This document shows positions 48,140 to 62,496 of a stretch of DNA of 64,000 nt, piece by piece. Every line of letters begins with the position of its first letter. Position 1 is the first letter of the stretch. The translations under genes were made by a program, and so were the position numbers. Location of the stretch: the NCBI GenBank assembly GCA_903915655.1, contig CAIWTU010000039.1:24113-88112 (forward strand). The letters run 5' to 3'. The notes beneath the pieces are model-generated. The model worked only from the letters and a program-made list of their open reading frames with translations. It had not been told where the DNA came from and ran no database searches. The DNA comes from an uncultured Geobacter sp. (lineage in GTDB: Bacteria > Desulfobacterota > Desulfuromonadia > Geobacterales > Geobacteraceae).

Positions 48140-49426
48140 ATGAGAGAGAGAATAATTGCCGTCCTCTTTGTATTTTGCCTCATCTTCAATTACGGATGCA
48201 CGGGAGGCGGAAGCGTTGATGCCGGGCCTTCGCTCTTTACGGAGAACACCCAGCAGGGACACCCCACCCCCAGCAGCGCTCTGGGGTATGTCAGATATAG
48301 GTTCGTTGATGTCGCTGACAATTACCTGGTCGATGCAAGAGTGACCCGCCTCACACTCAATCTATTCTCTGATCTCTCCTACTCGGCGGTGCGTGATTCG
48401 TTTGAGCAACTAGAGGACGGTTCGTACGTCTGGACTGGCCACATCGTGGGCGTCCAGAACAGCGAGGTCGAGTTCGTGAATGACGGTGGCTCGGTGGTGG
48501 GCATTGTGCGCGTCGGCTCGCGCTCGTACGAAGTGGGATATGATGATGGGTGGCAGATAGCGGCAGAGCTCGATCCGAACCTGCCAGAGCCGACAACCGA
48601 TGCGATAGAGATAGATCCGACCAAAGAGGCCGCGCAGTCCACGAAGGGATCTGCAGCGGCCGTGCCCCCCACGAAGGCGTCTGCGGATGATGGATCGGTG
48701 ATCGATGTCATGGTGGTCTACACTGCGGCAGCTCGTAAAGCGGCCGCTGGGATAGGTGATCTGCCGGACAAAGGTATCAGGGCAAAGATCGATCTGGCGG
48801 TCAAGGAGACCAACCAGGGTTTTGTGAACAGCGGAGTGAACACCAAGGTGCGTCTGGTTCACGCGGCGGAAGTCAGTTTTGACGAGAGCGAGATGACCCC
48901 GAGTGAAGCATTGTCGGAGATGAAGGATGGGAAAATCGGCTCGGTTCATGCGTGGCGCGATACCTATAAGGCAGATCTTGTCGTGATGCTTGCCCTCTAT
49001 CCGCGCGAAGACGTCTCAGGTGAATCGCTCGGCGTCGGGTATGTGATGAGTGGTCGGTATCTGGATAAGCAGACCCTCGTATATCCGTTTGAGCACTTGG
49101 GGTACAGCATCGTAGGCGTGAACTATGCGACAGGCTACTACACCTTTGCCCATGAGATGGGCCATAATATGGGTCTCTGTCATTACTATGACGTTTCGAC
49201 GATCACCGCGGCGGAGTCAGGCGGTTATGCGTGGAAGACCACGTTGTTCAGGTCGATCATGGGGCCGCCGGCGGGAGTGCCCAGAATCAACTACTGGTCG
49301 AATCCCAGCGTCAAATATAGCGGGTTGGCGACCGGAGGAACGGGTCTGGACGGAAGCTTTGTTTACGGAGGGAATGAGGCCACTGTCCTGAACTGGACAC
49401 GCGCCATCGTCGCGAAGTTCCGATAG
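48140..49426 (+). CDS. Lipoprotein zinc metalloprotease of the metzincin clan (reprolysin/M12B-like)
   Basis: Lipobox-like signal (…LIFNYGC). HEMGHNMGLCH is the HExxHxxGxxH motif. Confidence 0.8.
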   Translation: MRERIIAVLFVFCLIFNYGCTGGGSVDAGPSLFTENTQQGHPTPSSALGYVRYRFVDVADNYLVDARVTRLTLNLFSDLSYSAVRDSFEQLEDGSYVWTGHIVGVQNSEVEFVNDGGSVVGIVRVGSRSYEVGYDDGWQIAAELDPNLPEPTTDAIEIDPTKEAAQSTKGSAAAVPPTKASADDGSVIDVMVVYTAAARKAAAGIGDLPDKGIRAKIDLAVKETNQGFVNSGVNTKVRLVHAAEVSFDESEMTPSEALSEMKDGKIGSVHAWRDTYKADLVVMLALYPREDVSGESLGVGYVMSGRYLDKQTLVYPFEHLGYSIVGVNYATGYYTFAHEMGHNMGLCHYYDVSTITAAESGGYAWKTTLFRSIMGPPAGVPRINYWSNPSVKYSGLATGGTGLDGSFVYGGNEATVLNWTRAIVAKFR

Positions 49427-49831: not shown

Positions 49832-50452
49832 CTAAATAACTTCACTGCCACTAACAGGATTCAACTTTTCATTTTCTTTCGCTTCCAGTTCCAACTTACT
49901 TATTTCTTCCAGATAACGAAAGAGCGTGCGTCTGCCGACGCCGGATATCTTACAAACTTCAGCGGCTGTGTAGTCAGAATTATCATACAGAATCTTTGCC
50001 TGTTCCAGCTTTTTTTCATCAGTTCTGGGCCTGCCGCCCGTTCGTCCTCTTGCCTTGGCTGATTTTCTGCCTGCTTCTGCACGCTCGGACTTCAGCTCCC
50101 TCTCGAGCTGGTTGATGACGCCCATCATCAAAAAGAAAGCTCTCCCACTAGCGCTCGTAGTGTCTATGCTTTCCCGAAGGGATTTGATGTTGATTTTTTT
50201 AGCGGTGAACTCGTTGGATAATTGGAGTAGGTGCGTCAGCGAGCGAGTCATGCGACTAAGCTCTACCACAACGATAACATCACCAGGACGGACATATTGT
50301 ATCAACCTGTCCCAATCAGGTCTGGACTCGGTAATACCGCTGGTTTTGTCCGAAAATATCTTTTTACACCCTGCCGCCTTCAGCATATCAAGCTGACTAT
50401 CGAGGTTCTGGTCGCGACTGCTGACGCGGGCGTATCCGATTAATTCTGACAT
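49832..50452 (-). CDS. Serine recombinase (resolvase/invertase family)
   Basis: IGYARVSSRDQNLDSQ catalytic-Ser motif, and a C-terminal HTH (…AAEVCKISGVGRRTLFRYL). Confidence 0.92.
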   Translation of the reverse strand: MSELIGYARVSSRDQNLDSQLDMLKAAGCKKIFSDKTSGITESRPDWDRLIQYVRPGDVIVVVELSRMTRSLTHLLQLSNEFTAKKINIKSLRESIDTTSASGRAFFLMMGVINQLERELKSERAEAGRKSAKARGRTGGRPRTDEKKLEQAKILYDNSDYTAAEVCKISGVGRRTLFRYLEEISKLELEAKENEKLNPVSGSEVI

Positions 50453-50476
50453 AAAGTTCTCAATAAAGTGGATTGA

Positions 50477-50899
50477 CTACTGAGAGCCAGCTTTTCGGGA
50501 TTCCATAATTTCGTCATATTGTTCCCAAAATTCCCCAAGTTGATAGGGACAATAAAAGATGAAAGGAACGCCATCTACTCGAACCATCAATCCAAGTGGC
50601 CTCAGCTCCTGTTCTGCATACAAGTAGGCGAGGAAATCCCACATCCGCCGAGGTGGCTTATGATAGCATTCAGCTCCTCCTGTGGCATTTGTATAAGCTC
50701 CCCAAGCAGCTGCGACGCTCCCACCACTCCATTTTTGAAGCTCTGGATATTGCGACTTAAGGCTGTTCCCAAAATCAACTCGTTCGTCAGATAGATACTC
50801 GTCTTCTTTGTACACATAGTCTTTTTGAGGTTTACGGGCCTGAGGGAGTCTTTTAAGCCTCTTCGGTTTGAATTTCAATTCCATGTGCTTTATCTCCAT
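50477..50899 (-). CDS. Hypothetical protein, co-oriented 24 nt upstream of the recombinase gene
   Basis: 140-aa ORF with no recognisable motifs. Tight spacing suggests an operon with the recombinase. Confidence 0.5.
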   Translation of the reverse strand: MEIKHMELKFKPKRLKRLPQARKPQKDYVYKEDEYLSDERVDFGNSLKSQYPELQKWSGGSVAAAWGAYTNATGGAECYHKPPRRMWDFLAYLYAEQELRPLGLMVRVDGVPFIFYCPYQLGEFWEQYDEIMESRKAGSQ

Positions 50900-51105
50900 T
50901 ATCGGTTAATAGGTAGCAACATGGGTACTATAGTGCCATAACTCAACTCAACTGTCAAGTTTATGCACTATGAATATGGCATAAGTTATGACATGACTTA
51001 TTGTGTAATAAACAGCCTGTAAAAGGTCGTAGGGTAGGGGTGTCAAAAGTGTACTTTTGGCACTGGCACAAATGTCCTTGTTTTAGTACGAAATGTTTTT
51101 TAATT

Positions 51106-51639
51106 TCAAACACCGCTCATAACTTCAAGTATATAATTAGTTTTCCGTTCTGAATAATTTTTGACTAAATCAACGACTACTTCTCTATCATTTAACTCGC
51201 CTTCGATATTGTATTTAATATGCATTTTGTAATCCTTATACTCTAGTGGGACATGATATAAAAACAAAGCCATCATTGTTTGGTTATCATAAGGTTGGCT
51301 TTGAGCAGATTGTGTATTTTTATCATTAAATATAATGTTATTATCTTTATACATAATTACCAATTCTTTAACATTTGCAGTAAAAACTGTTGGTGTTTTT
51401 TTGTCTATCCAAATATTAATTTTATATGGAGATGCAAATGCAATAACATTATTATTTGTGTGCTCAGTACTATCTATTCGTATAGTTATTGCTGTGTTAT
51501 CTTTATTTATGTTGATACTGTTATAGTCATATTTTTTTATTACAATGTTATACTTAATAACAACAATTGATATTATTAATAACAAAAATCCGATTATATA
51601 TTTAAGCATATTAGTGACTCCTGTCATATTTAATGGCAT
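51106..51639 (-). CDS. Hypothetical membrane-anchored protein (very AT-rich gene)
   Basis: N-terminal TM helix (YIIGFLLLIISIVVI). Asn/Ile/Lys-rich composition reflects the low GC. Confidence 0.45.
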   Translation of the reverse strand: MPLNMTGVTNMLKYIIGFLLLIISIVVIKYNIVIKKYDYNSININKDNTAITIRIDSTEHTNNNVIAFASPYKINIWIDKKTPTVFTANVKELVIMYKDNNIIFNDKNTQSAQSQPYDNQTMMALFLYHVPLEYKDYKMHIKYNIEGELNDREVVVDLVKNYSERKTNYILEVMSGV

Positions 51640-51743
51640 TGCCTTAACTCGGGGCGATTAAATATCTCATTTCAGTGTCTAACCGGCCAATTGCATCAGA
51701 TACCAACTGAATGGTCGAACCGTCGCCGAACGTCACACAGGGC

Positions 51744-52013
51744 TTAACCAAACCAAGAAAACCAAGAGAGAATTTTTTCCATTATTTTTTCTCCCACCAA
51801 AGCTCCAAGCAATCCACAACCGAGAAGAATAAAAAGGAGGAATATTTTTGAGCTCTCATAAAAAGCAGATGGCGATTCCTTGATATAGTAGGAAAATATG
51901 CCTAAAACACCTAAGATTATTCCTCCCCAAAAGCCTGTCATACTCCAACAAGACTTACAGTTTGTAGAGTTGCTTGCGTCTATATTGTGTTCATTTTTTA
52001 TCTGTTTGCCCAT
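51744..52013 (-). CDS. Hypothetical small 2-TM membrane protein
   Basis: 89 aa with two hydrophobic helices (FWGGIILGVLGIFSYY; IFLLFILLGCGLLGALVG). Confidence 0.45.
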   Translation of the reverse strand: MGKQIKNEHNIDASNSTNCKSCWSMTGFWGGIILGVLGIFSYYIKESPSAFYESSKIFLLFILLGCGLLGALVGEKIMEKILSWFSWFG

Positions 52014-52598
52014 AAATCACCCGATAAAGTTATATTGGACATAATTGTGCCTCCTGGCTATAAGGCAACGTTGGCTGTGGAGGGAGCATGCTATTCGGTG
52101 GACTAAAATCAACTGGGTTATTTCTGTTACGATAGTCGTTTTTTAGTTCATTATAAATTTCACTAGATGTTTGTTTTACAAAATCGAAAGTCGTTTGCAA
52201 TACAGGTTTTCCTGGGGATACGCGGACATCGAATAATTTACTTTTCGACCCTAGTTACATACTCCCCCAATACAACAGAAAAGACCCCAAGGGCAAGGGG
52301 TCTTTTCTGTTTCAGTCATATCATAACTAACCGTTTTTACTTAAATTATACCAACTGGTATTATTGAGTGTTGATTATAAAGAGCAAATTGAAGCAAGTC
52401 GCAAATATCGAAAAATTACGAAATATTTGTTAATAAGTATTTATGGCAAGTAAAAGAGCCGTTTCAGACTCAATTATGAGGGATGTAAAAAGTGTATTTT
52501 GCGCAAAAAAAAGACCTGGATAATCATCCAAGGCTTCTCACGTCATTTATATCTGACATTTCCTCTCCTATCTACAGGTATGCCAGCGTCGTTTCAAA

Positions 52599-53174
52599 CT
52601 ATTTCCGCATAGCAAACACTTCCCTGATATCAGTTTGTTTGATAAGACCACTCTCTATAACCAACATGTCATAAACTGTATTGACTTCAGTAAATCTCAG
52701 AAGAGACATATTGATGCTATTGCAAACATCAATTCGACACCATTTTGACGAATCATCAACCGTGACGTGCCGCCGGCAGACGAAAGGGCGTGACTTGTAG
52801 ATGGAACAAGAGCCTTTCTTCAGGAAAGGACAAGGGCTTCCGTAAGTATTCCCAGTAATTATTTCCTTCGCAGGCTTAATACCCTCAGTTTTTCTGATAT
52901 ATTCAACTTCCAGTTTAGATATGGATACTTCAATGTGGCAGCAATGTGTGCATCCTTTTTTGCATGGTGTGAATTTTTGTATGAATTCAAGGAGGTCGTC
53001 CATAAATTCATATAGAGATTTCAACTTGCTGAAGTAATTGCCGCTATGCTTCATAAACCTGGCCACAAGCTGCTCTTCTTGAGACTTTAAATGAGGAGGA
53101 AGCGTACGAGCTATTAGGTCGCTGTTTTTCTGAGCCCTTAATCGGGCTTGTTCCTTTTCATCTTGTTCAACCAT
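52599..53174 (-). CDS. YkgJ-family cysteine-cluster (CxxCxxCC / UPF0153-like) protein
   Basis: FTPCKKGCTHCCH… and …GSPCPFLKKGSCSIYKSRPFVCRRH are the two halves of the YkgJ Zn/Fe-binding motif. It lies 56 nt downstream of the E2-E1-JAB gene. Confidence 0.75.
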   Translation of the reverse strand: MVEQDEKEQARLRAQKNSDLIARTLPPHLKSQEEQLVARFMKHSGNYFSKLKSLYEFMDDLLEFIQKFTPCKKGCTHCCHIEVSISKLEVEYIRKTEGIKPAKEIITGNTYGSPCPFLKKGSCSIYKSRPFVCRRHVTVDDSSKWCRIDVCNSINMSLLRFTEVNTVYDMLVIESGLIKQTDIREVFAMRK

Positions 53175-53230: not shown

Positions 53231-55474
53231 TCAATAATCACCGTAGTCGGCAAAGCATGTCAGCTCACGGTTATACCAAATCAGGTTGAATGCTGGGATG
53301 CCGAGCCGTAATTTCCTGATTTTCTGCAGCATCGCTTCATCAATCCCAGACGGTGCACTCCCGTACAGATGACTGTGCCACGTGCCGAGATATGTCAGCC
53401 CGGATGATTTCAGAATATTGGTGATTTTGTCCCTCAGTCCATCAATCCCCAGCACAAACAAACCACTTTTTCGAATGGAATCAGGTGGTGCTTCTAAAAT
53501 CCTGGTTACAATGGCGCACTTTCGCGCCAGACAGAGCCGTCCGATTAGTAACCCACCGGTTTCAACATCAGGCCACTTCCCGACTTCCTGTTCCATGGAA
53601 TCGAATGCAGAAGACAGCACTCTGAGCTCCCAGTCCCTATTCTGAAGATTCACGACGTGGGTTTTCCCGAGAAATGCCGTTTCCCATTTCAGAGACATTC
53701 CCATATCGGACATGCAACCGATTGATATCTCACCATCAACCTGGATATTACCCTCGTACGCCAGACGGGCGCGTTCGGCCATTGCTGCCGAATACATGGA
53801 TATTTTCGTATCCGGAATGACCATGGTATATGAGCCGCAACCCTGACCGGTTGAATGGCGCCGAAATCCATCGCCAGAACCCATTAGCACATTGGACACC
53901 GCTTTATTGTCGATTGTCGAATCGAACATAGCGGCATGCAAATCATCGACTCGGGGGTTTCGTCCTTTCCCTTCAATGGTAATAAAGCCGAGTTTCCCTT
54001 CCGAATATAGACCTGTCTGAAAAACTCGTGAGTTATTCTGTGCGGCAGGGAGTGACGCCAAAGTCTCTCGTACATTAATCGAAGCGGTGGAATCAATCAC
54101 CAGGCTATTCTTTTCGAACAGCCGGTTCTCATTCTTTGCGACAAAATCCTGCAATGACTTTGGATAAGGGGTGGCCTCGATATTAAAAACGTCGATTTCC
54201 TTTTTCAGCAATTCTGCCTTATTTCCAGAGGTCTTTGTGAGAGCATGTCGAGCAAGGTTGTGCTCGGACATGCTTCTGTTGTCTATCAACTTAAAAGGTC
54301 CATGCCCGGCTCTGCAAAGGTGCAGCGCTATTTTCGAGCCCAAGCTTCCGCACCCTACCTGTATAATCGATTCCATCTGGGCTGGCGATGAGCCTGACAA
54401 CCCCTGCAGCAATTCAGGCCCTACTGCATGGAGGTGACAAATGATATCAACCGGAGAATCCTTGTCAGCAAATCCTATTGTATCGAACTTCACCCGGACC
54501 CGGTAAGCAAGTAATTCAAGGTTGGTGTTCTGGTTTATTAATGGCAATGGCCTTCTTACACAATGCACCGTTATCACATCGACAATCCGTGATGTATCCC
54601 TTAGCCGGTTCCAGAGAGATTGAATCTCCTGCCAGAAAATTTTATATGTGCCGTATACCTTGCTCTTTTCCCGCAGCTCACCAAGATTTGTAACGGTCTC
54701 GGGGAAGTACTCGTTGACAACCATATCTTTGTCGGGCCAACAAAACAGCAGGGGTCTTGTGTTTAACGAATAATTATCCTTTTTATAATCTCGTTCAGTT
54801 ACATCGGAGATAAACCTGCCGTCCAGTTTTCGTGGGGTATAGTCGACAACGCTGCAACGTGAAATGTTATCAATTTCAAAACTTTCTACAGCTAGATACT
54901 TGCTGCCTGCAATGTCGGTTATTAATGACCGAAGCTTTGCATGCTGATAGACGATAAAGTTATCAAAAGTGTCGTAACGAATTGGTTCCCACCCTTGATT
55001 CGGGTTGATAAGACTGTTGCTTGCTGCCTTCATCAACCAATCCTGCACCTGGTAAAGTATTTCAGTCAATCCAAGCCCTCGATGCAGCAGGTCATCCAGA
55101 GAACCTTCATATATACAAGGCTTTACGAAATCATCTTCAGAACCTGGATTGATATGAGGCAGATTCCTTGGGAAATCCTTTCGTAAAAAAACCGTAGGCG
55201 CTTTCCGCGGGTAGTTTGCCGGGAACCTGAAATAGACAGGTTCGCAATCCTTAACGCCCGTCGAGCTGATGCCAGCCTTGATTGCCCTGTTTGGGAGTGA
55301 TACTGCAAAGCTGGTAACGATTATCCAGCCATTTCCGTTCTGTATCGGCTCATCGAAAATTTCTAAATCCGGAAATGTATCCATTTCCTTGAGCGCCAGA
55401 ACGATTGCCTTGGGAATCGGCAAGACATAAGCCTTATCTTTCTTCTTATCCTTACCCATGAGAGTGCGGTTCAC
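53231..55474 (-). CDS. E2-like / E1-like (ThiF) / JAB (JAMM) triple-fusion protein, Cap2+Cap3-like
   Basis: aa ~75-125: YFRFPANYP…PHINP…KPCIYEG (UBC-like HPN…C). aa 371-410: IQVGCGSLGSKIALHLCRAGHGPFKLIDN (E1 Rossmann GxGxxG). aa 636-712: VETGGLLIG…GTWHSHLYGSAPSGID (JAMM E…HxH…S..D). The listed start is GTG at 55474. An ATG at 55459 overlaps the MBL stop (ATGGGTAA). Confidence 0.8.
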   Translation of the reverse strand: MNRTLMGKDKKKDKAYVLPIPKAIVLALKEMDTFPDLEIFDEPIQNGNGWIIVTSFAVSLPNRAIKAGISSTGVKDCEPVYFRFPANYPRKAPTVFLRKDFPRNLPHINPGSEDDFVKPCIYEGSLDDLLHRGLGLTEILYQVQDWLMKAASNSLINPNQGWEPIRYDTFDNFIVYQHAKLRSLITDIAGSKYLAVESFEIDNISRCSVVDYTPRKLDGRFISDVTERDYKKDNYSLNTRPLLFCWPDKDMVVNEYFPETVTNLGELREKSKVYGTYKIFWQEIQSLWNRLRDTSRIVDVITVHCVRRPLPLINQNTNLELLAYRVRVKFDTIGFADKDSPVDIICHLHAVGPELLQGLSGSSPAQMESIIQVGCGSLGSKIALHLCRAGHGPFKLIDNRSMSEHNLARHALTKTSGNKAELLKKEIDVFNIEATPYPKSLQDFVAKNENRLFEKNSLVIDSTASINVRETLASLPAAQNNSRVFQTGLYSEGKLGFITIEGKGRNPRVDDLHAAMFDSTIDNKAVSNVLMGSGDGFRRHSTGQGCGSYTMVIPDTKISMYSAAMAERARLAYEGNIQVDGEISIGCMSDMGMSLKWETAFLGKTHVVNLQNRDWELRVLSSAFDSMEQEVGKWPDVETGGLLIGRLCLARKCAIVTRILEAPPDSIRKSGLFVLGIDGLRDKITNILKSSGLTYLGTWHSHLYGSAPSGIDEAMLQKIRKLRLGIPAFNLIWYNRELTCFADYGDY

Positions 55475-56615
55475 TTATTATGGCTATTCCCGCTCCCCCT
55501 GCCGACATCTTTTTCTTGCCCGGGGGTTGTATCCCATCGACAGCAATGGTGAATTCCATCGGTTCATGTGTCGTTTCGTTTGGATATTCTCCAGTACACC
55601 TGAAATTCTTTGATATTTTAAGATATTCCTGCTTCGCAGCATAGCAAGGAGGGTCGGTCTCATCATCTTTGATAGCTCTGCTGGTGGAGATAATAAAGGC
55701 ACCTTCATTTGCTTGTGAGAGCGCTGATATTGCATCCGCATCAACCTTAGGGTCGTCGCATTGACTCCTGCTATCGAACGACAGGACATGCCACGAACAG
55801 TGATGGGGGATTTGGAGCAAGTCGTATTTTAAGTTGTCGAGGTTGTACTGATACTTCGCCCACAATTTATTCCAGATGGCGACCTCGGCGTCACCACCCG
55901 TCAAAAAGAGGCAGGCATCCTGGTGAGAAGCGTCTGCGGCAATATGAAATTGGATAATTATACTCGAGTGGTTTTTTACCAGGGTCTTCTCGTCCTCTTC
56001 ATTTTGAAGCGAAAACGGCCCCAAGACTCTCATCCATGCAGCTGTTGAATGAGTGCCATTGATTGCATAAAAAATTTCCCCCTGCTTTTTCAAGATTCCT
56101 TCCAAGCCTTCGGACTTTTGGTCTTCGTCCTCTCCAATAATCAGAATCCTGTCACCGTCCGTGATACCTACTCCATAGTTGTCTTTATACTGTTTTACGC
56201 GCCGCTTGGCTTCTGTACTGAAAGCCTTCGCGTCTTCAGTAAGCGTGTGGTTTTTACTTGCTCGCCTGAAAACCATTGGAGATGACCATATCTCTCTGAC
56301 AAAAATCTTCTTTTCTTCCCCTTCAGGAGGCTCATCAACGTAATCATTGGGTTTCCCCAGATGAAAATGATTCTGCAGGCCTGTACAGTGGTCTTTATCA
56401 GGGTGGCTTAGAACAAAAACATCAACATATGGCCGGCCCTTATCATCGGTTTTAATCCGTTTTCTCAATTCTGAAGCGACATCACATGCATCATCTTCTG
56501 GATTGTCAGCTGCAGTGCGGATGTTCACGTCAATGAGAATGTTGGTGTCATCAATAAGGGTGATGAGGGTCATGTCGCCGTTTCCAACAGGGAAGAATGT
56601 TATCTTTGCGCTCAT
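55452..56615 (-). CDS. Metallo-beta-lactamase-fold protein (ComEC/Rec2-type MBL signature), C-terminus …EPHSHG
   Basis: ITFFPVGNGDMTLI and VFVLSHPDKDHCTG (HxDxDH-type motif), later IPHHCSWH. The gene's 3' end overlaps the E2-E1-JAB start. Confidence 0.8.
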   Translation of the reverse strand: MSAKITFFPVGNGDMTLITLIDDTNILIDVNIRTAADNPEDDACDVASELRKRIKTDDKGRPYVDVFVLSHPDKDHCTGLQNHFHLGKPNDYVDEPPEGEEKKIFVREIWSSPMVFRRASKNHTLTEDAKAFSTEAKRRVKQYKDNYGVGITDGDRILIIGEDEDQKSEGLEGILKKQGEIFYAINGTHSTAAWMRVLGPFSLQNEEDEKTLVKNHSSIIIQFHIAADASHQDACLFLTGGDAEVAIWNKLWAKYQYNLDNLKYDLLQIPHHCSWHVLSFDSRSQCDDPKVDADAISALSQANEGAFIISTSRAIKDDETDPPCYAAKQEYLKISKNFRCTGEYPNETTHEPMEFTIAVDGIQPPGKKKMSAGGAGIAIISEPHSHG

Positions 56616-56696: not shown

Positions 56697-57284
56697 TTAT
56701 TTTATGCGATAATAAATAAATTCGATGCCGCCTGAGGGGGCCATCTCTTCACGCCTCATGATGTAACCGCTTTCCCATAGCTGCTTGAGCTTGGTACTAG
56801 CGTTGGTGAGTTTCAAATCCAGTGCCGATGCTGCCGTTGAAGCTGTAGTCTCAGCAACTGTCAGGATATAATGGAGCAGGTCTGTGTTCCCTTTAGTTGG
56901 GCTCTGTCCTAACAATTTCCATGAGTCATCTTGCCATGAGAATAGCGGTTGTTCCTTCTTGTCGGCCGCCACATCGAGGTTCTCTATCAAGTCGTCATCA
57001 TCCAGGTCGACAATGGCGATTGCGTGCCTGGTGCGGAATCGGCTGGCTATCTCGACAACGCTCTCTCTTGAAAAGGATGCGTCAGTACGTTGTATCCCGG
57101 CAAACGATACCTTGAAAATATCAATTTCAGGATGTCTTTGGATAAAGTTTTCAAGAAGTTTGCCTACCTCTTTGCCTTGGGCATTTCCCCAACCGTCCGG
57201 GCTTTTCGTGAGGTCGACCAATTTGACAACACCGCGAGTCTGATTCATGCTTTTTATTGAACCAGAATTTTCCATATTTGTCAA
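56697..57284 (-). CDS. STAS-like (DUF4325-type) domain protein with C-terminal winged-helix HTH
   Basis: N-terminal …VVKLVDLT…GKEVGKLLENFIQRHPEIDIFKVSFAGIQRTDASFSRESVVEI… resembles DUF4325/STAS-like. C-terminal …LLHYILTVAETTASTAASALDLKLTNASTKLKQLWESGYIMRRE… is MarR-like wHTH. ATGA overlap with the upstream GHKL gene. Confidence 0.6.
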   Translation of the reverse strand: MTNMENSGSIKSMNQTRGVVKLVDLTKSPDGWGNAQGKEVGKLLENFIQRHPEIDIFKVSFAGIQRTDASFSRESVVEIASRFRTRHAIAIVDLDDDDLIENLDVAADKKEQPLFSWQDDSWKLLGQSPTKGNTDLLHYILTVAETTASTAASALDLKLTNASTKLKQLWESGYIMRREEMAPSGGIEFIYYRIK

Positions 57285-58156
57285 TACTTAAAATCAAAGG
57301 TGATATGTGTGCCCTTTACCGGCAGGAGTTCAAGGAAGCAATAGGCGGTGTCATGAGTATATACGTCATCGGCGGGGACAAGGTTTACGCGGGTATCTGC
57401 AAGTCGGACATGAAGCTTGCCATGGAACTGTTTCGCCTTCCTGGCACATGTCGTCAATCCACAGCCGTGACCACTTTTTTTCCGGTGTCTTGTAAGACCC
57501 TTCTCAAATGCGTCAATCACTATTTCGATATCTGTCGCATCCTTGTATTTCTTTGGTAGTTTGGGTCGAAGGGTTCCAAGTAGGCCTTTCCCGCTATCGG
57601 ACACAATAACCATAATTCCATTCTTGTATGTCTGCAGTGCCGCAAATGCGTCCAATTTTGTGGAGCTGTGCCTAATCACATTGTCAATCAGCTCGCCAAA
57701 AATTGTGAAGGACGCCTTGCCGAGCTTCTTGTCCTTGGTTTCAAGGGCATCAGCAAGGCGGCCGGGAAGTTCCGCGTCATCTTCATCGATGCGGACAATT
57801 TCCACCAGCCCCTTATTGGATTTTTTGTACAGCTGAGCGCCGGAAAATAAAGGTTTGGCAGGGAGTATTGTGACGTGGGGGGCAATGTGGTCAAAAAATC
57901 CCATTCTGTTGAAATAACCCATTACTTCAGAGTCTTCATTCTGGAAATCGATGGTTACTAATTTCCCCTCTGCTGAAAGTTGGTTGATGAGGCTTAAAAA
58001 TATTACGGCGGCATCGATAAGGATTTTTGAGCCTGGCAGAATTTCAAAACAAACTGACTCTTTCCCCTGAATTGCCTCTTTAGCTTTCCAGAGAATACCC
58101 TCAAGCTTGTCACCACCAATCCATACGTCTTCCGGGAAAGAGATTCTCGGCATCAT
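57281..58156 (-). CDS. GHKL (SpoIIAB/RsbW-like) ATPase/kinase with N-terminal STAS-like region
   Basis: N-box FGELIDNVIRHS, G1 VSDSGKGL, G2 SGHGCGL. The N-terminal 130 aa (…ILIDAAVIFLSLINQLSAEGKLVTIDF…MGYFNRMGFFDHI) look like an anti-sigma-antagonist-type fold. Confidence 0.72.
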   Translation of the reverse strand: MMPRISFPEDVWIGGDKLEGILWKAKEAIQGKESVCFEILPGSKILIDAAVIFLSLINQLSAEGKLVTIDFQNEDSEVMGYFNRMGFFDHIAPHVTILPAKPLFSGAQLYKKSNKGLVEIVRIDEDDAELPGRLADALETKDKKLGKASFTIFGELIDNVIRHSSTKLDAFAALQTYKNGIMVIVSDSGKGLLGTLRPKLPKKYKDATDIEIVIDAFEKGLTRHRKKSGHGCGLTTCARKAKQFHGKLHVRLADTRVNLVPADDVYTHDTAYCFLELLPVKGTHITFDFKY

Positions 58157-58487: not shown

Positions 58488-58525
58488 CTTCCGTAAAATT
58501 GAAACATCTAAAAAGGTACGGTTTT

Positions 58526-58804
58526 ATGGCACATGAAATAGTTGTAATAGGCTTGGGCACAAACGAGAAAGCCAGCAGCATTCTCAAAGCCGAATTGACC
58601 AAACGCGGCATTTCCTACACAAAACTGGCGGAGCTTTTAAACCAGCGTGGGTGGAAGCTGAACAAGCCGGCGGTCGACAACAGAATGAGCCGCAGCGGCT
58701 TCTCTGCTGACTTCTTCCTTGATTGCTTGCGGGTAATTGGCTGCGAAAATATTGGTGTACTAGTAGACAAACCTGTGAAGGACCTTGTGAAGAACTCCGA
58801 TTAA
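58526..58804 (+). CDS. Small HTH protein (DUF6471-like)
   Basis: …LKAELTKRGISYTKLAELLNQRGWKLNKPAVDNRMSRSGFSADFFLDCLRVIGC… resembles the DUF6471 pattern as I recall it. The ORF track starts at a TTG at 58499. Confidence 0.5.
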   Translation: MAHEIVVIGLGTNEKASSILKAELTKRGISYTKLAELLNQRGWKLNKPAVDNRMSRSGFSADFFLDCLRVIGCENIGVLVDKPVKDLVKNSD

Positions 58805-58834
58805 CCCAATTTTATTTAATTCTATGGAGAGACT

Positions 58835-61800
58835 ATGAAAACCGTACGCGACGCCTGTGTGCTTCAAGACAATGCCCTGGACATCCATGTAAGCGACCAG
58901 ATTGAACAACTTGACGAACTCATCGCCAACGAAAAGGACGGGCGTCTTTTCTTCGAGAAAACCCATATCACCGAAGGCATGAAGACCCTCATGATTGAGG
59001 GTATCGCCCGCCTTGCCGGGAAATCGAATCAGGCTATCTTCCATCTCAAACAGGCCATGGGCGGCGGTAAAACTCACTTGCTGGTCGGCTTCGGGCTGTA
59101 TGCCAAGCATGCCGTACTGCGAGACGAATACTGCTCCGATATTCCTCACATAAAAGCTTTCGCCGGCGCCAAGGTTGCCGCCTTCAATGGCAGGAACAGC
59201 CCGGCCCATTTCGTCTGGGGCGAGATAGCCGCCCAATTGGGGAAAGCAGAGCAGTTCAAGAAATTCTGGGAAAGCGGCCCCAAGGCTCCCGACGAGCAGG
59301 ATTGGGTATCCCTCTTCGATGGTGACACCCCAATCCTCATCCTGCTCGACGAGATGCCACCATATTTCCACTATCTCGACACCCAGCAGGTTGGGAACGG
59401 CACCGTTGCCGATATCGCCACCCGCGCCTTCGCCAATATGCTGACCGCCGCCAGCAAAAAGGCCAATGTTTGCGTCGTGATTTCCGACCTGACCGCTTCG
59501 TACGATACCGGCACGAAGTTAATTCATAAGGCGCTGGAAGATGCCCGCCAGGAGGTTGGCCGCCAGGAGAGGAACATCACTCCGGTCGACCTCGCCGGTA
59601 ACGAGATTTACGACATCCTTCGCAAGCGGATGTTCAAGAAGCTCCCCGACCGTGCGGTAATCGAAGATATCGCTGCCTCATTCGGCCGGGCCTTGGAGGA
59701 AGCGAGCAAGGCAAAAGTCGTGAATCGTGGCGCTGAAGCCATTGCCGATGAAATCGTCAACACCTATCCTTTCCATCCCCGCCTGAAAAACCTGGTTGCC
59801 CTTTTTAAGGAAAATGAAAAGTTCAAACAGACTCGCGGTCTCATGGAAATCGTGTCACGCCTGATGAGGTCGGTCTGGGAGCGCCAGGATAATGATGTCT
59901 ACCTGATAGGCCCGCAGCACTTTGATTTCTCCATTTCCGATGTCAGGGAAAAGATTTCCGAGATTTCCGAGATGCGGGATGCAATAGCCAAAGACCTCTG
60001 GGACGCGAACATGTCGTCTCATGCCCAAATCATTGACCTGAACACCGGCAATGATGCCGCGTCACGTGTTGGCGCTCTTCTCTTGACTTCCAGCCTTTCC
60101 ACCGCCGTGAACGCCGTCAAAGGCCTCACCAAGGAAGAACTGCTCGAATGCCTGGTTACTCCCATCAGCGGGGCAACCGAATTTGCCACGGCATTCGATT
60201 CGTTCCATGGCGTTGCCTGGTATGTCCACCACACCCCTGAGGGCAAGTATTACTTCGACCGCCAGGAAAATCTTACCAAGCTCCTGCAGAGCATTGCCGA
60301 GGATGCCCCGGACAACAAGATTGATGAGCTTATCAGCGACCGTTTGAAGGAAAAGTTTGCCCCAACCAGAAAAACCGCCTACGACGAAGTACTGCCGTTG
60401 CCGAAGATTAGCGAGGTTGCTGACAAGGTAAGAAAAAATCGCGTACTCTTGATAGTCAGCCCTGATTCAAAGGTACCACCTGAAGAGGTCCAGCGGCTCT
60501 TTGACAGCCTCATGCAGAAAAACAACCTCTGCATCCTTACCGGCGACAAGACCCAAATGGGCAGCGTAGAAAAGGCCGCCCGGCAGGTTTTCGCCGCCCT
60601 GAAGGCAGATAAGAGGATTCCGAAAGGCCATCCCCAGCGGGAAGAGCTTGACATGAAACAGCAGCAGTACGAGCAGGATTTCACCGCAACGGTGCTGAAC
60701 CTTTTTGACAAAGTAATTTTCCCAATTCACCGTCCTGGAAAGACCGCACAGCTTGTTTCCAAGCCGCTAGATATGACCTACGACCAAAAAAAAGGATTCA
60801 GCGGCGAAGAGCAAATAGAAAAGACCCTCACCAAAGACCCGATAAAGCTGTACCTCGACATAGAACAAAACTTTGACGGTATCAGAGACAAGGCGGAAGA
60901 ACTGCTGTGGCCGGCCAACCAGGATGACTCTAGGTGGAGCGACATTCAGGACAGGATTACAGAACAGGCCGGCATGCCATGGCTGCCGCCCAAAGGCCTT
61001 GACCAGCTAAAAGCTCTCGCTTGCAATCGCGGTCTTTGGGAAGACCTTGGCAATGGCTACATCACGAAAAAACCGCAGAAGAAAAAGACTTCCGTTCAAT
61101 ATACCAATGAGACACAACGCGACGATGAAGGGTACATCAGGATTCGTATCAATCCCCTGAATGCCGGCCCATCGCCCCGTATCTATTATGCCGAGGATGG
61201 CCCGGTCTCCGAAGCAAGCCAGTTGCTTGCCGAACAGACCCTGACCACCAAGGCCATTCGTGTCCAGTTCCTGGCCGTCGACCCCTCGAATCAGTTTGAG
61301 ACCGGCCCCGCAGTTACCTGGGATGCAAAGCCAGTTATCAGGAACAACCTTCTGGATGTCGAGCCGAAACGGAAAGTGGAGCTGTTCGTTGCACCAAAGG
61401 GCGCACTCAAATATTCCATGGACGGCAGTGAACCGCGTAACGGCATCGACTATACCGGAGCCATCGAGATTTCCGATGGCGATGTCCACCTGATGGTATT
61501 TGCCGAAGCCGATGGTCTTGAAGCCAAGGAAGAGTTCAGATTCGCCGCAAAGGGGCAAAAAGGTCTCCGTATTAAGGAAACCGAGCCCGCCCGCCTCATA
61601 AGCCCGCGTGGCGGCAAGCGTTTGGATTCCCGCATCAAGGCCTTCGCCGGGCTGAAAGAAGCCAAAGAGAAGAGCGTCAACTTCGAGCGGGTCACTCTCC
61701 AGATTGGCCAAGGTAGCCAGGCTGTCACGGTCATGTTTGGAGACATCCAGGTAGACGCAGAGTATATCGAGTCGGTTCTTGAAACCGTCCTGACCAAATT

Positions 61801-61921
61801 TGATGCCACTACCCCTATCACGCTGACCTTCGCCAAGGCCAATTTCCACTCCGGCCATGACCTGAAACAGTTTGCGGATAGCTTGGGTATCGACATCAAA
61901 CAAGAGGAAGTTGAGCAGTAA
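58835..61921 (+). CDS. DUF499-type large P-loop ATPase
   Basis: 1028 aa. Walker A HLKQAMGGGKTHLL, Walker B ILILLDEMPPY. Size and gene context (DUF3780-like plus DUF1156 methylase downstream) fit the DUF499 module. Confidence 0.72.
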   Translation: MKTVRDACVLQDNALDIHVSDQIEQLDELIANEKDGRLFFEKTHITEGMKTLMIEGIARLAGKSNQAIFHLKQAMGGGKTHLLVGFGLYAKHAVLRDEYCSDIPHIKAFAGAKVAAFNGRNSPAHFVWGEIAAQLGKAEQFKKFWESGPKAPDEQDWVSLFDGDTPILILLDEMPPYFHYLDTQQVGNGTVADIATRAFANMLTAASKKANVCVVISDLTASYDTGTKLIHKALEDARQEVGRQERNITPVDLAGNEIYDILRKRMFKKLPDRAVIEDIAASFGRALEEASKAKVVNRGAEAIADEIVNTYPFHPRLKNLVALFKENEKFKQTRGLMEIVSRLMRSVWERQDNDVYLIGPQHFDFSISDVREKISEISEMRDAIAKDLWDANMSSHAQIIDLNTGNDAASRVGALLLTSSLSTAVNAVKGLTKEELLECLVTPISGATEFATAFDSFHGVAWYVHHTPEGKYYFDRQENLTKLLQSIAEDAPDNKIDELISDRLKEKFAPTRKTAYDEVLPLPKISEVADKVRKNRVLLIVSPDSKVPPEEVQRLFDSLMQKNNLCILTGDKTQMGSVEKAARQVFAALKADKRIPKGHPQREELDMKQQQYEQDFTATVLNLFDKVIFPIHRPGKTAQLVSKPLDMTYDQKKGFSGEEQIEKTLTKDPIKLYLDIEQNFDGIRDKAEELLWPANQDDSRWSDIQDRITEQAGMPWLPPKGLDQLKALACNRGLWEDLGNGYITKKPQKKKTSVQYTNETQRDDEGYIRIRINPLNAGPSPRIYYAEDGPVSEASQLLAEQTLTTKAIRVQFLAVDPSNQFETGPAVTWDAKPVIRNNLLDVEPKRKVELFVAPKGALKYSMDGSEPRNGIDYTGAIEISDGDVHLMVFAEADGLEAKEEFRFAAKGQKGLRIKETEPARLISPRGGKRLDSRIKAFAGLKEAKEKSVNFERVTLQIGQGSQAVTVMFGDIQVDAEYIESVLETVLTKFDATTPITLTFAKANFHSGHDLKQFADSLGIDIKQEEVEQ

Positions 61922-62496
61922 TGGATAAGTACCTTTTCACAGATTTTGGCGCTCCGGATGAATACGGTGCCCATATATTTAAGGTTGAAATACCTGCCTC
62001 ACGGAGTGATGCAGTCCGGATTATCGAGGACTTTGGGCTAAAGGGTGGCGACAGCGGTCTGCCTTATGAAGAGGTAAGGGTGGTTCTCCCCCGTAAAGCC
62101 TGGTCTGCCATCGCGGAAACCGCCCGGAAAAATTTCAACGAACGCCTGAAAACCAAGAAACTCCTGACTGGGCGCTGGCGAGTTGGGACAGGCAAAGAGG
62201 CCACCAAGGTTGACCGGCTACTGGGGAAAGAGCTTTGCATTTTGGCTTGGGCGGTTGAAAACGCCGACGAAGATAAATACCCGGTCGTATGCAGCAAGTG
62301 GGTCTCGTTGCGCCCTGAAGAACGCTGGTGGCTGTTTTCCATGACTGCCGCGGAAGCCGGACTTGCGGAAGATGGCGACCGTGGCTGGCGGAAAGCCCTG
62401 CTCTATGCCCTGTCGGATGGCAAAGCCGGAGAGAAGACGGTAAAGCGCCGTCGCCCGGTTGTTGATGAAGATAACCTATCGTTGTTTGGAGTTTGA
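61921..62496 (+). CDS. DUF3780-like protein
   Basis: 191 aa. The start overlaps the DUF499 stop (TAATG). Assignment rests mainly on size and position between the DUF499 and DUF1156 genes. Confidence 0.5.
   Translation: MDKYLFTDFGAPDEYGAHIFKVEIPASRSDAVRIIEDFGLKGGDSGLPYEEVRVVLPRKAWSAIAETARKNFNERLKTKKLLTGRWRVGTGKEATKVDRLLGKELCILAWAVENADEDKYPVVCSKWVSLRPEERWWLFSMTAAEAGLAEDGDRGWRKALLYALSDGKAGEKTVKRRRPVVDEDNLSLFGV

What the first reader, a model, noticed from the sequence alone, without database searches (positions are those of the whole stretch)
55452..55480. The MBL protein ends in …EPHSHG and its stop is embedded in the start of the E2-E1-JAB gene: candidate conjugation substrate
Of the five operon products, only the MBL-fold protein terminates with glycine (…GAGIAIISEPHSHG*). 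The others end in Y, K, Y and K.

E1-type enzymes adenylate a C-terminal carboxylate that is usually Gly. In CBASS the conjugated C-terminus belongs to the enzyme encoded next to Cap2, not to a dedicated Ubl.

The sequence CATGGGTAAG holds both the MBL Gly-stop (GGG TAA) and an ATG for the fusion protein, which implies translational coupling and stoichiometric co-production. My inference is that the MBL protein itself is the modifier that becomes conjugated, and that the JAB domain trims or recycles it.
Basis: inference. Interest (0 to 1): 0.7.

Follow-up and report, generated by a model that had tools for sequence, protein, structure and literature searches.

The report
Known 6A-MBL phage defence operon

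Summary
On the minus strand the 387-aa MBL-fold protein ends …SEPHSHG*, and its Gly-stop (GGG TAA) shares eight bases (ATGGGTAA, 55459-55452) with the ATG of a 742-aa E2-E1-JAB fusion.

- In 88 loci and about 200 further homologues, nearly every MBL of this family ends in [His/Tyr]-[Gly/Ala], or has that motif followed by a 1-8 residue extension.
- The last 20 residues are predicted to be disordered.
- The E1 adenylation motif, E1 Cys, E2 Cys and JAMM motif are invariant.
- No ubiquitin-like gene recurs, and paralogous MBLs in the same islands lack the tail.

None of this is new in kind. It is operon type "6a" of Iyer et al. 2006. NCBIfam now has equivalog models for both proteins ("anti-phage 6A-MBL system"), and both are matched far above cut-off. 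A 2024 Corbett-lab preprint already states that "MBL pathways" conjugate their enzyme as Type II CBASS does.

The two upstream genes are the published CapK/CapS regulators. The fifth gene (CxxCxxCC) is not a core component.

Conjugation itself remains untested here. Verdict: new member of a known kind, with low to moderate interest.

The parts
57281..58156 (-). CapK-like GHKL kinase (291 aa), first gene of the regulator pair
   Evidence: Pfam HATPase_c 1.9e-08, with a weak DUF4325/STAS-like hint in the N-terminal part. Homologues sit directly upstream of CBASS, Bub and 6A-MBL operons. This matches the published description of CapK (PMC13373217).
56697..57284 (-). CapS-like STAS-wHTH repressor (195 aa, TTG start overlapping the capK stop by 4 nt)
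   Evidence: Sequence match to PDB 9z71 and 9z72/9z73 (184-185 aa wHTH/MarR-type regulators) at E = 4e-28 over residues 19-193. The D-x-S-F serine, conserved in all 58 aligned homologues, is Ser70 here. The protein is 65-84% identical in L085-L087 in the same position.
55452..56615 (-). 6A-MBL system MBL-fold enzyme (387 aa), proposed conjugation substrate and probable nuclease effector
   Evidence: NCBIfam NF058524 '6A-MBL_enzyme' scores 416.7 bits against a cut-off of 220. The AF2 model has pLDDT 87, and the best PDB fold match is the ComEC MBL domain 9ic4 at E = 4e-13. Invariant H71-x-D73-x-D75-H76, D242 and H271/H272.
55455..55514 (-). Disordered C-terminal tail of the MBL protein (residues 368-387, …AGGAGIAIISEPHSHG)
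   Evidence: pLDDT is below 50 for residues 368-387. The family consensus is [R/K]-E-P-x-x-H-G-COOH, with Pro at -4 in 132/188, His or Tyr at -1 in 185/188 and Gly or Ala at 0 in 188/188 anchored tails.
55452..55459 (-). 8-nt stop/start overlap ATGGGTAA (MBL Gly-stop and the fusion-protein ATG)
   Evidence: Read directly from the sequence. The same ATGGnTAR geometry occurs in 35 of 87 loci, and a 4-nt xTGA overlap occurs in 42 more.
53231..55459 (-). E2-E1-JAB triple-module protein (742 aa; 'cap2_3')
   Evidence: NCBIfam NF058523 '6A-MBL_cap2_3' scores 528.3 bits against a cut-off of 320. Pfam finds Prok-E2_A 1e-29, ThiF 2.7e-12 and Prok-JAB 1.6e-05. The best solved relative is CBASS Cap2 (7tsq/7to3).
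54950..55321 (-). E2 (Prok-E2_A) domain with His102 and catalytic Cys115
   Evidence: The Pfam match is. His and Cys are invariant in 59/59 non-redundant homologues (numbering there is +1).
53828..54400 (-). E1 (ThiF-like) adenylation domain: G369-x-G371-x-x-G374, D393, N401, R404, and catalytic Cys541
   Evidence: All listed residues are invariant in 59/59. The Cap2 counterparts are C548 (E1) and C109 (E2).
53312..53653 (-). JAB/JAMM peptidase domain: E633, H695-x-H697, S704, D707
   Evidence: Pfam Prok-JAB, and PADLOC JAB models at 1e-16. The motif residues are invariant in 59/59.
52599..53174 (-). YkgJ-type CxxCxxCC protein (191 aa); fifth gene of the cluster and not a core component
   Evidence: Pfam CxxCxxCC 1.5e-08. 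It is absent from 79 of 80 genome loci and present in L014. The closest relatives of the cassette carry a 150-aa membrane protein here instead. Homologues at 51-55% identity pair with DUF4357 in other defence islands.

Best explanation
The cluster is a CapK/CapS-regulated copy of the known 6A-MBL anti-phage system.

CapS (STAS-wHTH) is inferred to repress the operon, and CapK (GHKL kinase) is inferred to relieve repression after DNA damage. This follows the published work on homologues.

The two core genes are translationally coupled. The MBL-fold protein has a ComEC-like metallo-hydrolase fold and is probably a DNase effector. It carries a 20-residue disordered tail ending in …EPHSHG.

By homology with the Type II CBASS pair Cap2 and CD-NTase, the proposed steps are:
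1. The ThiF-type E1 domain of the fusion protein binds this tail and adenylates Gly387.
2. The tail is passed as a thioester to E1 Cys541.
3. It is then passed to E2 Cys115.
4. It is ligated to an unknown target.
5. The C-terminal JAMM domain reverses the linkage. In relatives whose MBL has extra residues after the Gly, the JAMM domain would also expose the Gly.

Shown here: family membership, gene order and overlap, the conserved tail, its predicted disorder, intact catalytic motifs, and the absence of a Ubl.

Inferred: every chemical step, the nuclease activity, the target, and the effect of conjugation on activity.
For: Family membership and gene order:
- NCBIfam equivalog models for both 6A-MBL proteins are matched at about twice their cut-offs.
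- Pfam finds Prok-E2_A, ThiF and Prok-JAB.
- Cap2 is the closest solved structure by sequence.
- The MBL is followed on the same strand by an E2-E1(-JAB) gene in about 72 of 80 genome loci by BLAST. The remainder have a divergent E2-E1 plus a separate JAB gene.
- The stop/start overlap is present in 77/87 loci.

The tail:
- Tail classes in 88 loci are 36 HG, 36 HG plus extension, 7 [Y/F]A and 7 [R/K]AG with or without extension.
- Of 85 cluster representatives at 50% identity, 54 end in [HYFW][GA], 16 have HG/YG plus 1-8 residues, 9 end in another G/A, and 2 have RAG plus extension.
- His codon usage shows that HG is selected at the protein level.
- The tail is disordered in the AF2 model.

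Catalytic residues and controls:
- The E1, E2 and JAMM catalytic residues are invariant in 59/59.
- As a control, a paralogous MBL in 29 of the same loci ends in N/S/E, with 1/30 ending in Gly.
- No recurring small ORF was found among neighbours.

The CBASS precedent:
- The E. cloacae CdnD tail ends …KTGRFA and the V. cholerae tail ends in Gly436.
- Cap3 cleaves exactly after the last residue.
- Acidobacterial 6A MBL tails (…GNSRYA, …GGGRYA) resemble the CdnD tail.

Literature:
- Operon type 6a.
- 6A-MBL listed among anti-phage systems.
- 'MBL pathways' described as conjugating their enzyme.
- CapK/CapS reported upstream of 7 MBL operons.
Against: - No experiment or complex model was available, so binding of the tail in the E1 pocket is untested.
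- The primary paper on 6A-MBL (van den Berg 2024) is not in the held library. I could not check what was actually demonstrated for the MBL C-terminus.
- The nuclease assignment rests on a remote fold match (13% identity to ComEC) and on weak hits to other defence MBLs.
- One of 88 loci lacks the motif, probably because of a frameshift.
- A few long family members (504-631 aa) carry other C-terminal domains and no terminal Gly.
- Co-inheritance of the two adjacent genes could by itself explain some tail-class and E1-clade correlation.
Confidence: 0.8

Rival explanations
1. The terminal His-Gly is a nucleotide-level by-product. The CAT-GGN-TAA arrangement is kept only because it builds the ATG, and its context, for the downstream gene. 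Under this view the protein tail has no role as a substrate.
For: In the HG-terminal class, 29 of 36 His codons are CAT, which creates the overlapped ATG. The Y-A terminal class uses TAT-GCC-TAA, which also creates ATG at -5.
Against: - HG is equally conserved in 36 loci where it is followed by 1-8 more codons. There His is CAC in 32 cases and the start codon lies elsewhere.
- An ATG constraint alone would also allow Asn or Asp at -1 and Val, Asp or Glu at 0, and these are not seen.
- Conservation extends to Pro at -4, Glu at -5 and Arg/Lys at -6.
- The motif persists in loci with a gap between the genes.
Confidence: 0.04
2. The E1/E2 machinery acts on something other than the MBL protein, such as a Ubl or peptide encoded elsewhere, or a small molecule. 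The MBL is simply the co-expressed effector. Its conserved tail would serve another purpose, such as autoinhibition, metal binding by His, or docking to the fusion protein.
For: - Conjugation of the MBL was not tested here.
- Related defence MBLs are autoinhibited DNases controlled by partner enzymes through a different mechanism, proteolysis of inserted loops.
- A terminal His could plausibly reach a metal site.
Against: - No Ubl-like or other small conserved ORF accompanies the pair in 87 loci from many phyla.
- The operon is usually just these two genes plus a regulator.
- Tails ending in a small residue after a disordered linker, with frequent short extensions, match the signature of E1 substrates and their precursors.
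- The closest characterised relative, Cap2, uses exactly the neighbouring enzyme's tail.
Confidence: 0.1
3. The E1 domain performs non-conjugative chemistry on the MBL C-terminus. Examples are MccB-like adenylation and cyclisation, or ThiS/MoaD-like thiocarboxylation, rather than transfer to a target.
For: MccB and the ThiF/MoeB adenylyltransferases are among the sequence relatives of the E1 domain.
Against: - An E2 domain with an invariant Cys/His pair and a JAMM isopeptidase are fused to the E1 in 59/59 homologues. These have no role in sulfur transfer or microcin-type chemistry.
- There is no rhodanese or sulfur-relay gene nearby.
- Cap2 matches better than MccB.
Confidence: 0.04

Closest known systems
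6A-MBL anti-phage system (operon type '6a' of Iyer, Burroughs & Aravind 2006; named and validated by van den Berg et al. 2024; NCBIfam NF058524 and NF058523)
   Same: - The same two core proteins, in the same order and on the same strand.
- Both are matched above the curated equivalog cut-offs.
[quoted passage not shown]
- It sits in a defence island next to a DUF6471/DUF499/DUF3780 system.
   Different: - This copy belongs to a Desulfuromonadales-like subclade. Its MBL is 73-76% identical to those of L001/L002.
- It uses CapK/CapS instead of the divergent WYL regulator seen in 53 loci.
- It has a CxxCxxCC gene where its closest relatives have a 150-aa membrane protein.
- The NCBIfam MBL model stops at residue 361 and does not cover the tail.
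Type II CBASS: Cap2 (E2-E1), Cap3 (JAB) and CD-NTase (operon type 6b)
   Same: - The E1 is closest to Cap2 among solved structures.
- E1 Cys, E2 Cys and the JAMM motif are conserved.
- There is no Ubl.
- The neighbouring enzyme has a disordered tail with a conserved small C-terminal residue preceded by an aromatic or His residue. Compare CdnD …GRFA and DncV …G436 with …HSHG, …TYG and …SRYA here.
   Different: - The substrate enzyme is an MBL-fold hydrolase, not a nucleotidyltransferase.
- No cyclic-nucleotide synthase or receptor-effector is present.
- JAB is fused to E2-E1 here. It is split, as in CBASS, only in an acidobacterial subclade.
- The E2 belongs to Pfam Prok-E2_A.
Bil and Bub bacterial ubiquitination-like systems (types 6e and related)
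   Same: - E1, E2 and JAB-type peptidase logic.
- Precursors with C-terminal extensions that a peptidase removes.
- The same CapK/CapS or WYL regulators upstream.
   Different: - Those systems conjugate a dedicated β-grasp Ubl. No Ubl gene exists here or in related loci.
- Their E1 and E2 are separate proteins.
Trypsin-MBL effector module of Hachiman/AVAST/pAgo systems
   Same: - A ComEC-like MBL-fold protein acts as the toxic effector of a defence system.
- There are weak sequence hits to Avs1a, LmuA-type and DRT-associated MBLs.
- Activity is controlled post-translationally by a partner enzyme.
   Different: - Control there is by proteolytic removal of inhibitory loops, not by C-terminal conjugation.
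- The relationship is distant, with Avs1a at 25 bits against a cut-off of 420.
CapK/CapS transcriptional regulator pair (Chambers et al. 2026)
   Same: - A GHKL kinase gene followed by a STAS-wHTH gene immediately upstream of the immune operon.
- The CapS match to PDB 9z71/9z72 is at E = 4e-28, with the conserved serine present.
- The paper reports 7 MBL operons with this pair.
   Different: - CapK here is 291 aa, and no N-terminal HTH was detected by Pfam.
- Regulation by DNA damage was not testable.

Membership tests
6A-MBL anti-phage system | MBL-fold protein of the 6A-MBL family | tested here: met
   NF058524.1 scores 416.7 bits against a cut-off of 220, E = 7e-125, covering residues 7-361.
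6A-MBL anti-phage system | Single polypeptide with E2, E1 and JAB domains in that order (cap2_3) | tested here: met
   NF058523.1 scores 528.3 bits against a cut-off of 320. Pfam places Prok-E2_A at 48-171, ThiF at 366-502 and Prok-JAB at 624-714.
6A-MBL anti-phage system | The two genes are adjacent and co-directional, with the MBL first | tested here: met
   There is an 8-nt overlap at 55452-55459. The same order is seen in the 80 genome loci.
6A-MBL anti-phage system | Protects against phage | not testable with these tools
   Only indirect evidence is available. The locus is in a defence island beside DUF499/DUF3780. Relatives lie beside BREX, Wadjet-like and PLD genes.
Cap2-type ubiquitin-like conjugation of a non-Ubl enzyme (as in Type II CBASS) | E1 adenylation motif with catalytic Cys, and E2 catalytic Cys | tested here: met
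   GxGxxG, D393, N401, R404, C541, H102 and C115 are invariant in 59/59. The best PDB hit is Cap2.
Cap2-type ubiquitin-like conjugation of a non-Ubl enzyme (as in Type II CBASS) | Neighbouring enzyme has an extended, disordered C-terminal tail with a conserved extreme C-terminus (Gly/Ala) | tested here: met
   pLDDT is below 50 for residues 368-387.
Cap2-type ubiquitin-like conjugation of a non-Ubl enzyme (as in Type II CBASS) | JAMM peptidase with an intact metal site | tested here: met
   E633, H695-x-H697, S704 and D707 are invariant.
Cap2-type ubiquitin-like conjugation of a non-Ubl enzyme (as in Type II CBASS) | Formation of substrate~AMP, thioester and substrate-target conjugates | not testable with these tools
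   This needs biochemistry. No multimer prediction was available.
Type II CBASS proper | CD-NTase and a cyclic-nucleotide-activated effector in the operon | tested here: not met
   No SMODS/CD-NTase or effector domain is found among the five genes. The locus is therefore not CBASS.
Ubl-based bacterial systems (Bil, Bub) | Dedicated β-grasp Ubl gene | tested here: not met
   The intergenic gaps in the cluster are 81 and 56 nt. No recurrent small ORF family was found in 87 loci. The small flanking ORFs have no Pfam hit.
CapK/CapS regulators | STAS-wHTH protein with a conserved phospho-acceptor Ser, preceded by a GHKL kinase gene, upstream of an immune operon | tested here: met
   PDB 9z71/9z72 at E = 4e-28. 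Ser70 lies in the D-x-S-F motif that is conserved in all aligned homologues. HATPase_c domain.
CapK/CapS regulators | N-terminal HTH in CapK, and activation by ssDNA/DNA damage | tested here: inconclusive
   Pfam found no HTH in residues 1-127 and only a weak DUF4325/STAS hint at E = 0.1. Activation is not testable.

The most novel reading that the evidence does not exclude
In CBASS, conjugation primes a signalling enzyme. Here the conjugated protein would be the killing enzyme itself. The E2-E1-JAB protein might covalently tether a ComEC-like DNase, through Gly387, to a specific phage or host protein, or into MBL chains. Ubiquitin-like ligation would then deliver or switch on a nuclease, and JAB-dependent trimming of precursor tails (…HG-AS, …RAG-YGWKAR) would act as a second safety catch. 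The distinct tail classes (HG, YG, RAG, RYA) would then mark co-evolving E1-substrate specificity groups.
Probability: 0.25. Interest if true: 0.7.

Novelty: new member of a known kind. Interest (0 to 1): 0.3.

Why it matters
If the tail really is the E1 substrate, 6A-MBL is a second natural case, after CBASS, in which ubiquitin-type chemistry is applied to a whole enzyme rather than to a small modifier. In this case the enzyme is probably the effector nuclease.

The survey gives ready-made experimental handles:
- a sharply defined C-terminal motif, [R/K]-E-P-x-x-[H/Y]-[G/A];
- natural precursor forms with 1-8 extra residues;
- fused and split JAB variants.

For this particular window the practical value is annotation. 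All five genes can now be named: CapK, CapS, 6A-MBL enzyme, cap2_3, and a YkgJ-type passenger. The finding does not open a new question that specialists have not already posed.

Tried and rejected
- PADLOC 2023 has no 6A-MBL model. It only gave generic E1-E2/JAB hits and weak MBL hits.
- The primary 6A-MBL paper and the final Ledvina and Chambers Nature papers are not held. I could therefore not establish whether MBL conjugation has been shown experimentally. A search for metallo-β-lactamase + Cap2 + ubiquitin-like + phage found nothing. One literature search was wasted on 'MBL', which mostly means other things.
- I first took the HATPase/195-aa pair for non-conserved neighbours, because all 80 genome loci lack them. 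Closer relatives and a metagenome scan showed they are a portable module, since published as CapK/CapS.
An alignment of 58 homologues showed the conserved Ser is the second position, which is present here.
- I considered the CxxCxxCC protein as a system-specific fifth component or target, because it also follows the fusion gene in Rudaea L014. I rejected it as specific, because homologues at 51-55% identity pair with DUF4357 in unrelated defence islands.
- The apparent MBL-E2-E1-JAB 'fusion' proteins (P0131, P0190) are frameshifted gene calls, not natural fusions.
- Promoter and terminator scans were no better than shuffled sequence.

Full report
**What is in the sequence.** All genes of the cluster lie on the minus strand.

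| Coordinates | Product | Last residue |
|---|---|---|
| 57281-58156 | 291 aa | Y |
| 56697-57284 | 195 aa | K |
| 55452-56615 | 387 aa | G |
| 53231-55459 | 742 aa | Y |
| 52599-53174 | 191 aa | K |

The string CATGGGTAAG is there. CAT-GGG-TAA closes the 387-aa ORF, and the embedded ATG (55459-55457) opens MGKDKKK….

The ORF tool lists an upstream GTG for the fusion gene. Relatives, however, start at the same overlapped ATG with the same basic N-terminus, and gene callers give 740-742 aa for them. Residue numbers for the fusion protein were computed from 55462. They are one higher than the true numbering, which I use below.

**Identity of the two core genes.**
- Pfam finds Prok-E2_A, ThiF and Prok-JAB in the 742-aa protein. 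It finds nothing in the 387-aa protein.
- NCBIfam settles the question. The 387-aa protein hits NF058524 'anti-phage 6A-MBL system MBL-fold protein' at 416.7 bits (cut-off 220). The fusion hits NF058523 'anti-phage 6A-MBL system cap2_3 protein' at 528.3 bits (cut-off 320).
- Later papers list 6A-MBL among anti-phage systems and cite van den Berg et al. 2024.
- The closest solved structure to the E1 domain is CBASS Cap2.

- Of the 120 closest MBL homologues (53-100% identity), 105 end in Gly, nearly all as …EPxxHG. Most of the rest have HG followed by a few residues.
- I ran an exhaustive search of representatives of 50%-identity clusters, reaching down to about 32% identity, and kept the 85 full-length proteins:

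| Tail in the 85 cluster representatives | Number |
|---|---|
| Ends in [HYFW][GA] | 54 |
| HG or YG plus 1-8 residues | 16 |
| Ends in another Gly/Ala | 9 |
| RAG plus extension | 2 |
| Other | 4 |

- When tails are anchored on the motif, the consensus is [R/K]-E-P-x-x-[H/Y]-[G/A], with Pro at -4 in 132 of 188.
- In 88 loci (the window, 80 species-representative genomes and 7 metagenome contigs) the tails are:

| Tail in the 88 loci | Number |
|---|---|
| HG at the end | 36 |
| HG plus extension | 36 |
| [Y/F]A at the end | 7 |
| [R/K]AG, with or without extension | 7 |
| Probable frameshift | 1 |
| Runs off the contig | 1 |

- The AlphaFold model of the window protein is confident (pLDDT 87) except for residues 368-387, which fall below 50. 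The conserved end therefore sits on a flexible 20-residue tail.

**Is HG merely the footprint of the overlapping start codon?** No.
- Where HG is terminal, His is CAT in 29 of 36 cases, and CAT supplies the ATG.
- Where HG is followed by extra codons and the start is a later ATGA, His is CAC in 32 of 36 cases, yet HG is kept.
- An ATG constraint would also tolerate Asn or Asp at -1 and Val, Asp or Glu at 0. These do not occur.

**Controls.** Other gene families in the same neighbourhoods rarely end in Gly:
- a paralogous MBL found in 29 loci: 1 of 30;
- the WYL regulator: 3 of 54;
- two membrane-protein families: 0 of 28 and 0 of 18.

**Partner enzyme and absence of a Ubl.**
- In about 72 of the 80 genome loci, BLAST finds the fusion gene directly downstream on the same strand. 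In the remainder, mostly Acidobacteria, a roughly 650-aa ThiF protein and a separate 154-aa Prok-JAB gene follow, which is the CBASS-like split arrangement.
- Stop and start overlap by 8 or 4 nt in 77 of 87 loci.
- In 59 non-redundant fusion proteins the following are invariant:
  - E2: His102 and Cys115;
  - E1: G369-x-G371-x-x-G374, D393, N401, R404 and Cys541;
  - JAMM: E633, H695-x-H697, S704 and D707.
- Clustering all neighbouring ORFs found no recurrent small protein that could be a Ubl. The intergenic gaps in the window (81 and 56 nt) leave no room for one.

**Comparison with the CBASS precedent.** The Cap2 preprint gives the criteria:
- The tail enters the E1 site and is adenylated.
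- Cap2 C548 (E1) and C109 (E2) are needed.
- Cap3 cleaves exactly after the last residue.
- E. cloacae CdnD ends …KTGRFA and V. cholerae DncV ends in Gly436.

The 6A MBL tails share the same grammar: an aromatic or His residue followed by Gly or Ala. The acidobacterial …GNSRYA and …GGGRYA tails come close to the CdnD tail. Natural extensions after the Gly, in about 40% of loci, imply a maturation step. The fused JAB is the obvious candidate for that step, as shown for Bil and Bub precursors.

**What the MBL does.**
- The best fold match is the ComEC β-lactamase-like domain (9ic4, E = 4e-13), followed by tRNase-Z-like PNGM-1.
- The invariant H71-P-D73-x-D75-H76, D242 and H271/H272 form a complete metal site.
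- There are weak sequence links to the MBL components of Lamassu-like, DRT-associated and AVAST type 1 systems. A related defence MBL was recently shown to be an autoinhibited DNase.

A nuclease effector is therefore the best inference, but only an inference.

**The other three genes.**
- *Genes 1 and 2.* The 291-aa and 195-aa genes are absent from all 80 genome loci. They do accompany the cassette in closer relatives that sit in three different genomic contexts.
  - Homologues of the pair also precede a Bub operon, a CBASS operon and another E1 operon.
  - In a metagenome scan, the genes downstream of the pair included ThiF (12), patatin (10), Prok-E2_A (9), Prok-JAB (8), CD-NTase (7), HORMA, SAVED and TIR domains.
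  - This is the CapK/CapS module published in 2026: a GHKL kinase that phosphorylates a STAS-wHTH repressor in response to ssDNA. [quoted passage not shown]
  - The 195-aa protein matches PDB 9z71 and 9z72 at E = 4e-28 and keeps the conserved serine, Ser70.
  - In most other 6A-MBL loci a divergent WYL regulator occupies this role.
- *Gene 5.* It is a YkgJ-type CxxCxxCC protein.
  - The nearest relatives of the cassette carry a conserved 150-aa membrane protein at that position instead. The window has no trace of that gene.
  - CxxCxxCC homologues occur after the fusion gene in Rudaea (L014), and probably on the contigs of MBL P0008 and P0009, judging by matching contig lengths.
  - At 51-55% identity, however, they pair with DUF4357 in unrelated defence islands.
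  - I treat gene 5 as a defence-island passenger or optional accessory, not as part of the core mechanism.

**Verdict.** It also coincides with what specialists already assume. [quoted passage not shown]

I could not read the primary 6A-MBL paper, so I cannot say how much of this has been shown at the bench. No 6A-MBL structure is in the PDB copy searched.

The locus is a new member of a known kind.

Noticed in passing
window 56697-58156 (minus strand): The two genes upstream of the MBL are a CapK (GHKL kinase) / CapS (STAS-wHTH) regulator pair. In a metagenome scan, homologues precede CBASS, Bub, 6A-MBL and TIR-containing operons. In most other 6A-MBL loci a divergent WYL regulator sits there instead.
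   Followed up: yes
window 58499-62496 (plus strand), and 62500-64000: A DUF6471 / DUF499 / DUF3780 anti-phage-associated set (NF042962 and NF042961 above cut-off) lies divergent to the cluster. The DUF1156 methyltransferase that follows DUF3780 in relative L085 is not seen here. Instead the sequence drops to about 36% GC with no long ORF up to the window end, so the system may be truncated or interrupted.
   Followed up: partly
window 52599-53174; loci L171, L172, L014: The YkgJ-type CxxCxxCC protein recurs in defence islands. It directly follows the E2-E1-JAB gene here and in Rudaea. Elsewhere it is paired (about 20-nt overlap) with a 300-aa DUF4357 protein next to nSTAND3/ResIII genes. Its function is unknown.
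   Followed up: partly
L081 9418-9879, L084 9441-9893, L085 10427-10915, L086 10403-10858, L087 6431-6898: A conserved protein of about 150 aa (72-81% identical between contigs) follows the fusion gene in the window's closest relatives but is missing from the window. From its hydrophobic sequence I judge it to be a multi-pass membrane protein; it has no Pfam hit. Other subclades carry different membrane proteins (about 212 aa in 18 loci, about 262 aa in 28 loci) and a second MBL paralogue (29 loci).
   Followed up: partly
L013, L025, L037, L040, L056, L062, L080 (Acidobacteria and relatives): This is a split-gene variant of 6A-MBL. The MBL ends in …G-N-S-R-Y-A or …AGFA, and is followed by a roughly 650-aa E2-E1 and a separate roughly 154-aa JAB gene. 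The tail resembles the E. cloacae CdnD tail …GRFA.
   Followed up: partly
proteins P0128 (631 aa), P0124 and P0147 (504 and 532 aa): These are long members of the MBL family. P0128 has …IRPHG at the usual end position, followed by a further 246-aa domain, so it may be a precursor or a read-through. P0124 and P0147 share a different Cys-rich C-terminal domain and no terminal Gly. Their genomic context could not be looked up.
   Followed up: no
window 49832-52500: A serine recombinase (Resolvase + HTH_7, 49832-50452) borders an AT-rich stretch (32-38% GC, 50.5-52.5 kb). That stretch holds small ORFs without family matches. One is an 89-aa ORF ending in …WFG, which from its sequence looks like a membrane protein, not a Ubl. 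The cassette itself is 45-47% GC against 52-55% in the flanks. This suggests a mosaic mobile island.
   Followed up: no
L089, L098, L100, L109 (genes after CapK/CapS): Several 393-414-aa proteins downstream of CapK/CapS end in …NTF[F/Y]G plus 1-2 residues. The one in L089 is a CD-NTase by Pfam. This is a conserved near-terminal Gly in operons whose next genes are 336-484 aa. I did not examine whether these are Cap2-type substrates.
   Followed up: no
window 48140-49426 (plus strand): A 428-aa protein has a partial match to the Mep72-type metzincin protease (E = 4e-29, far below the family cut-off). It appears unrelated to the cluster.
   Followed up: no
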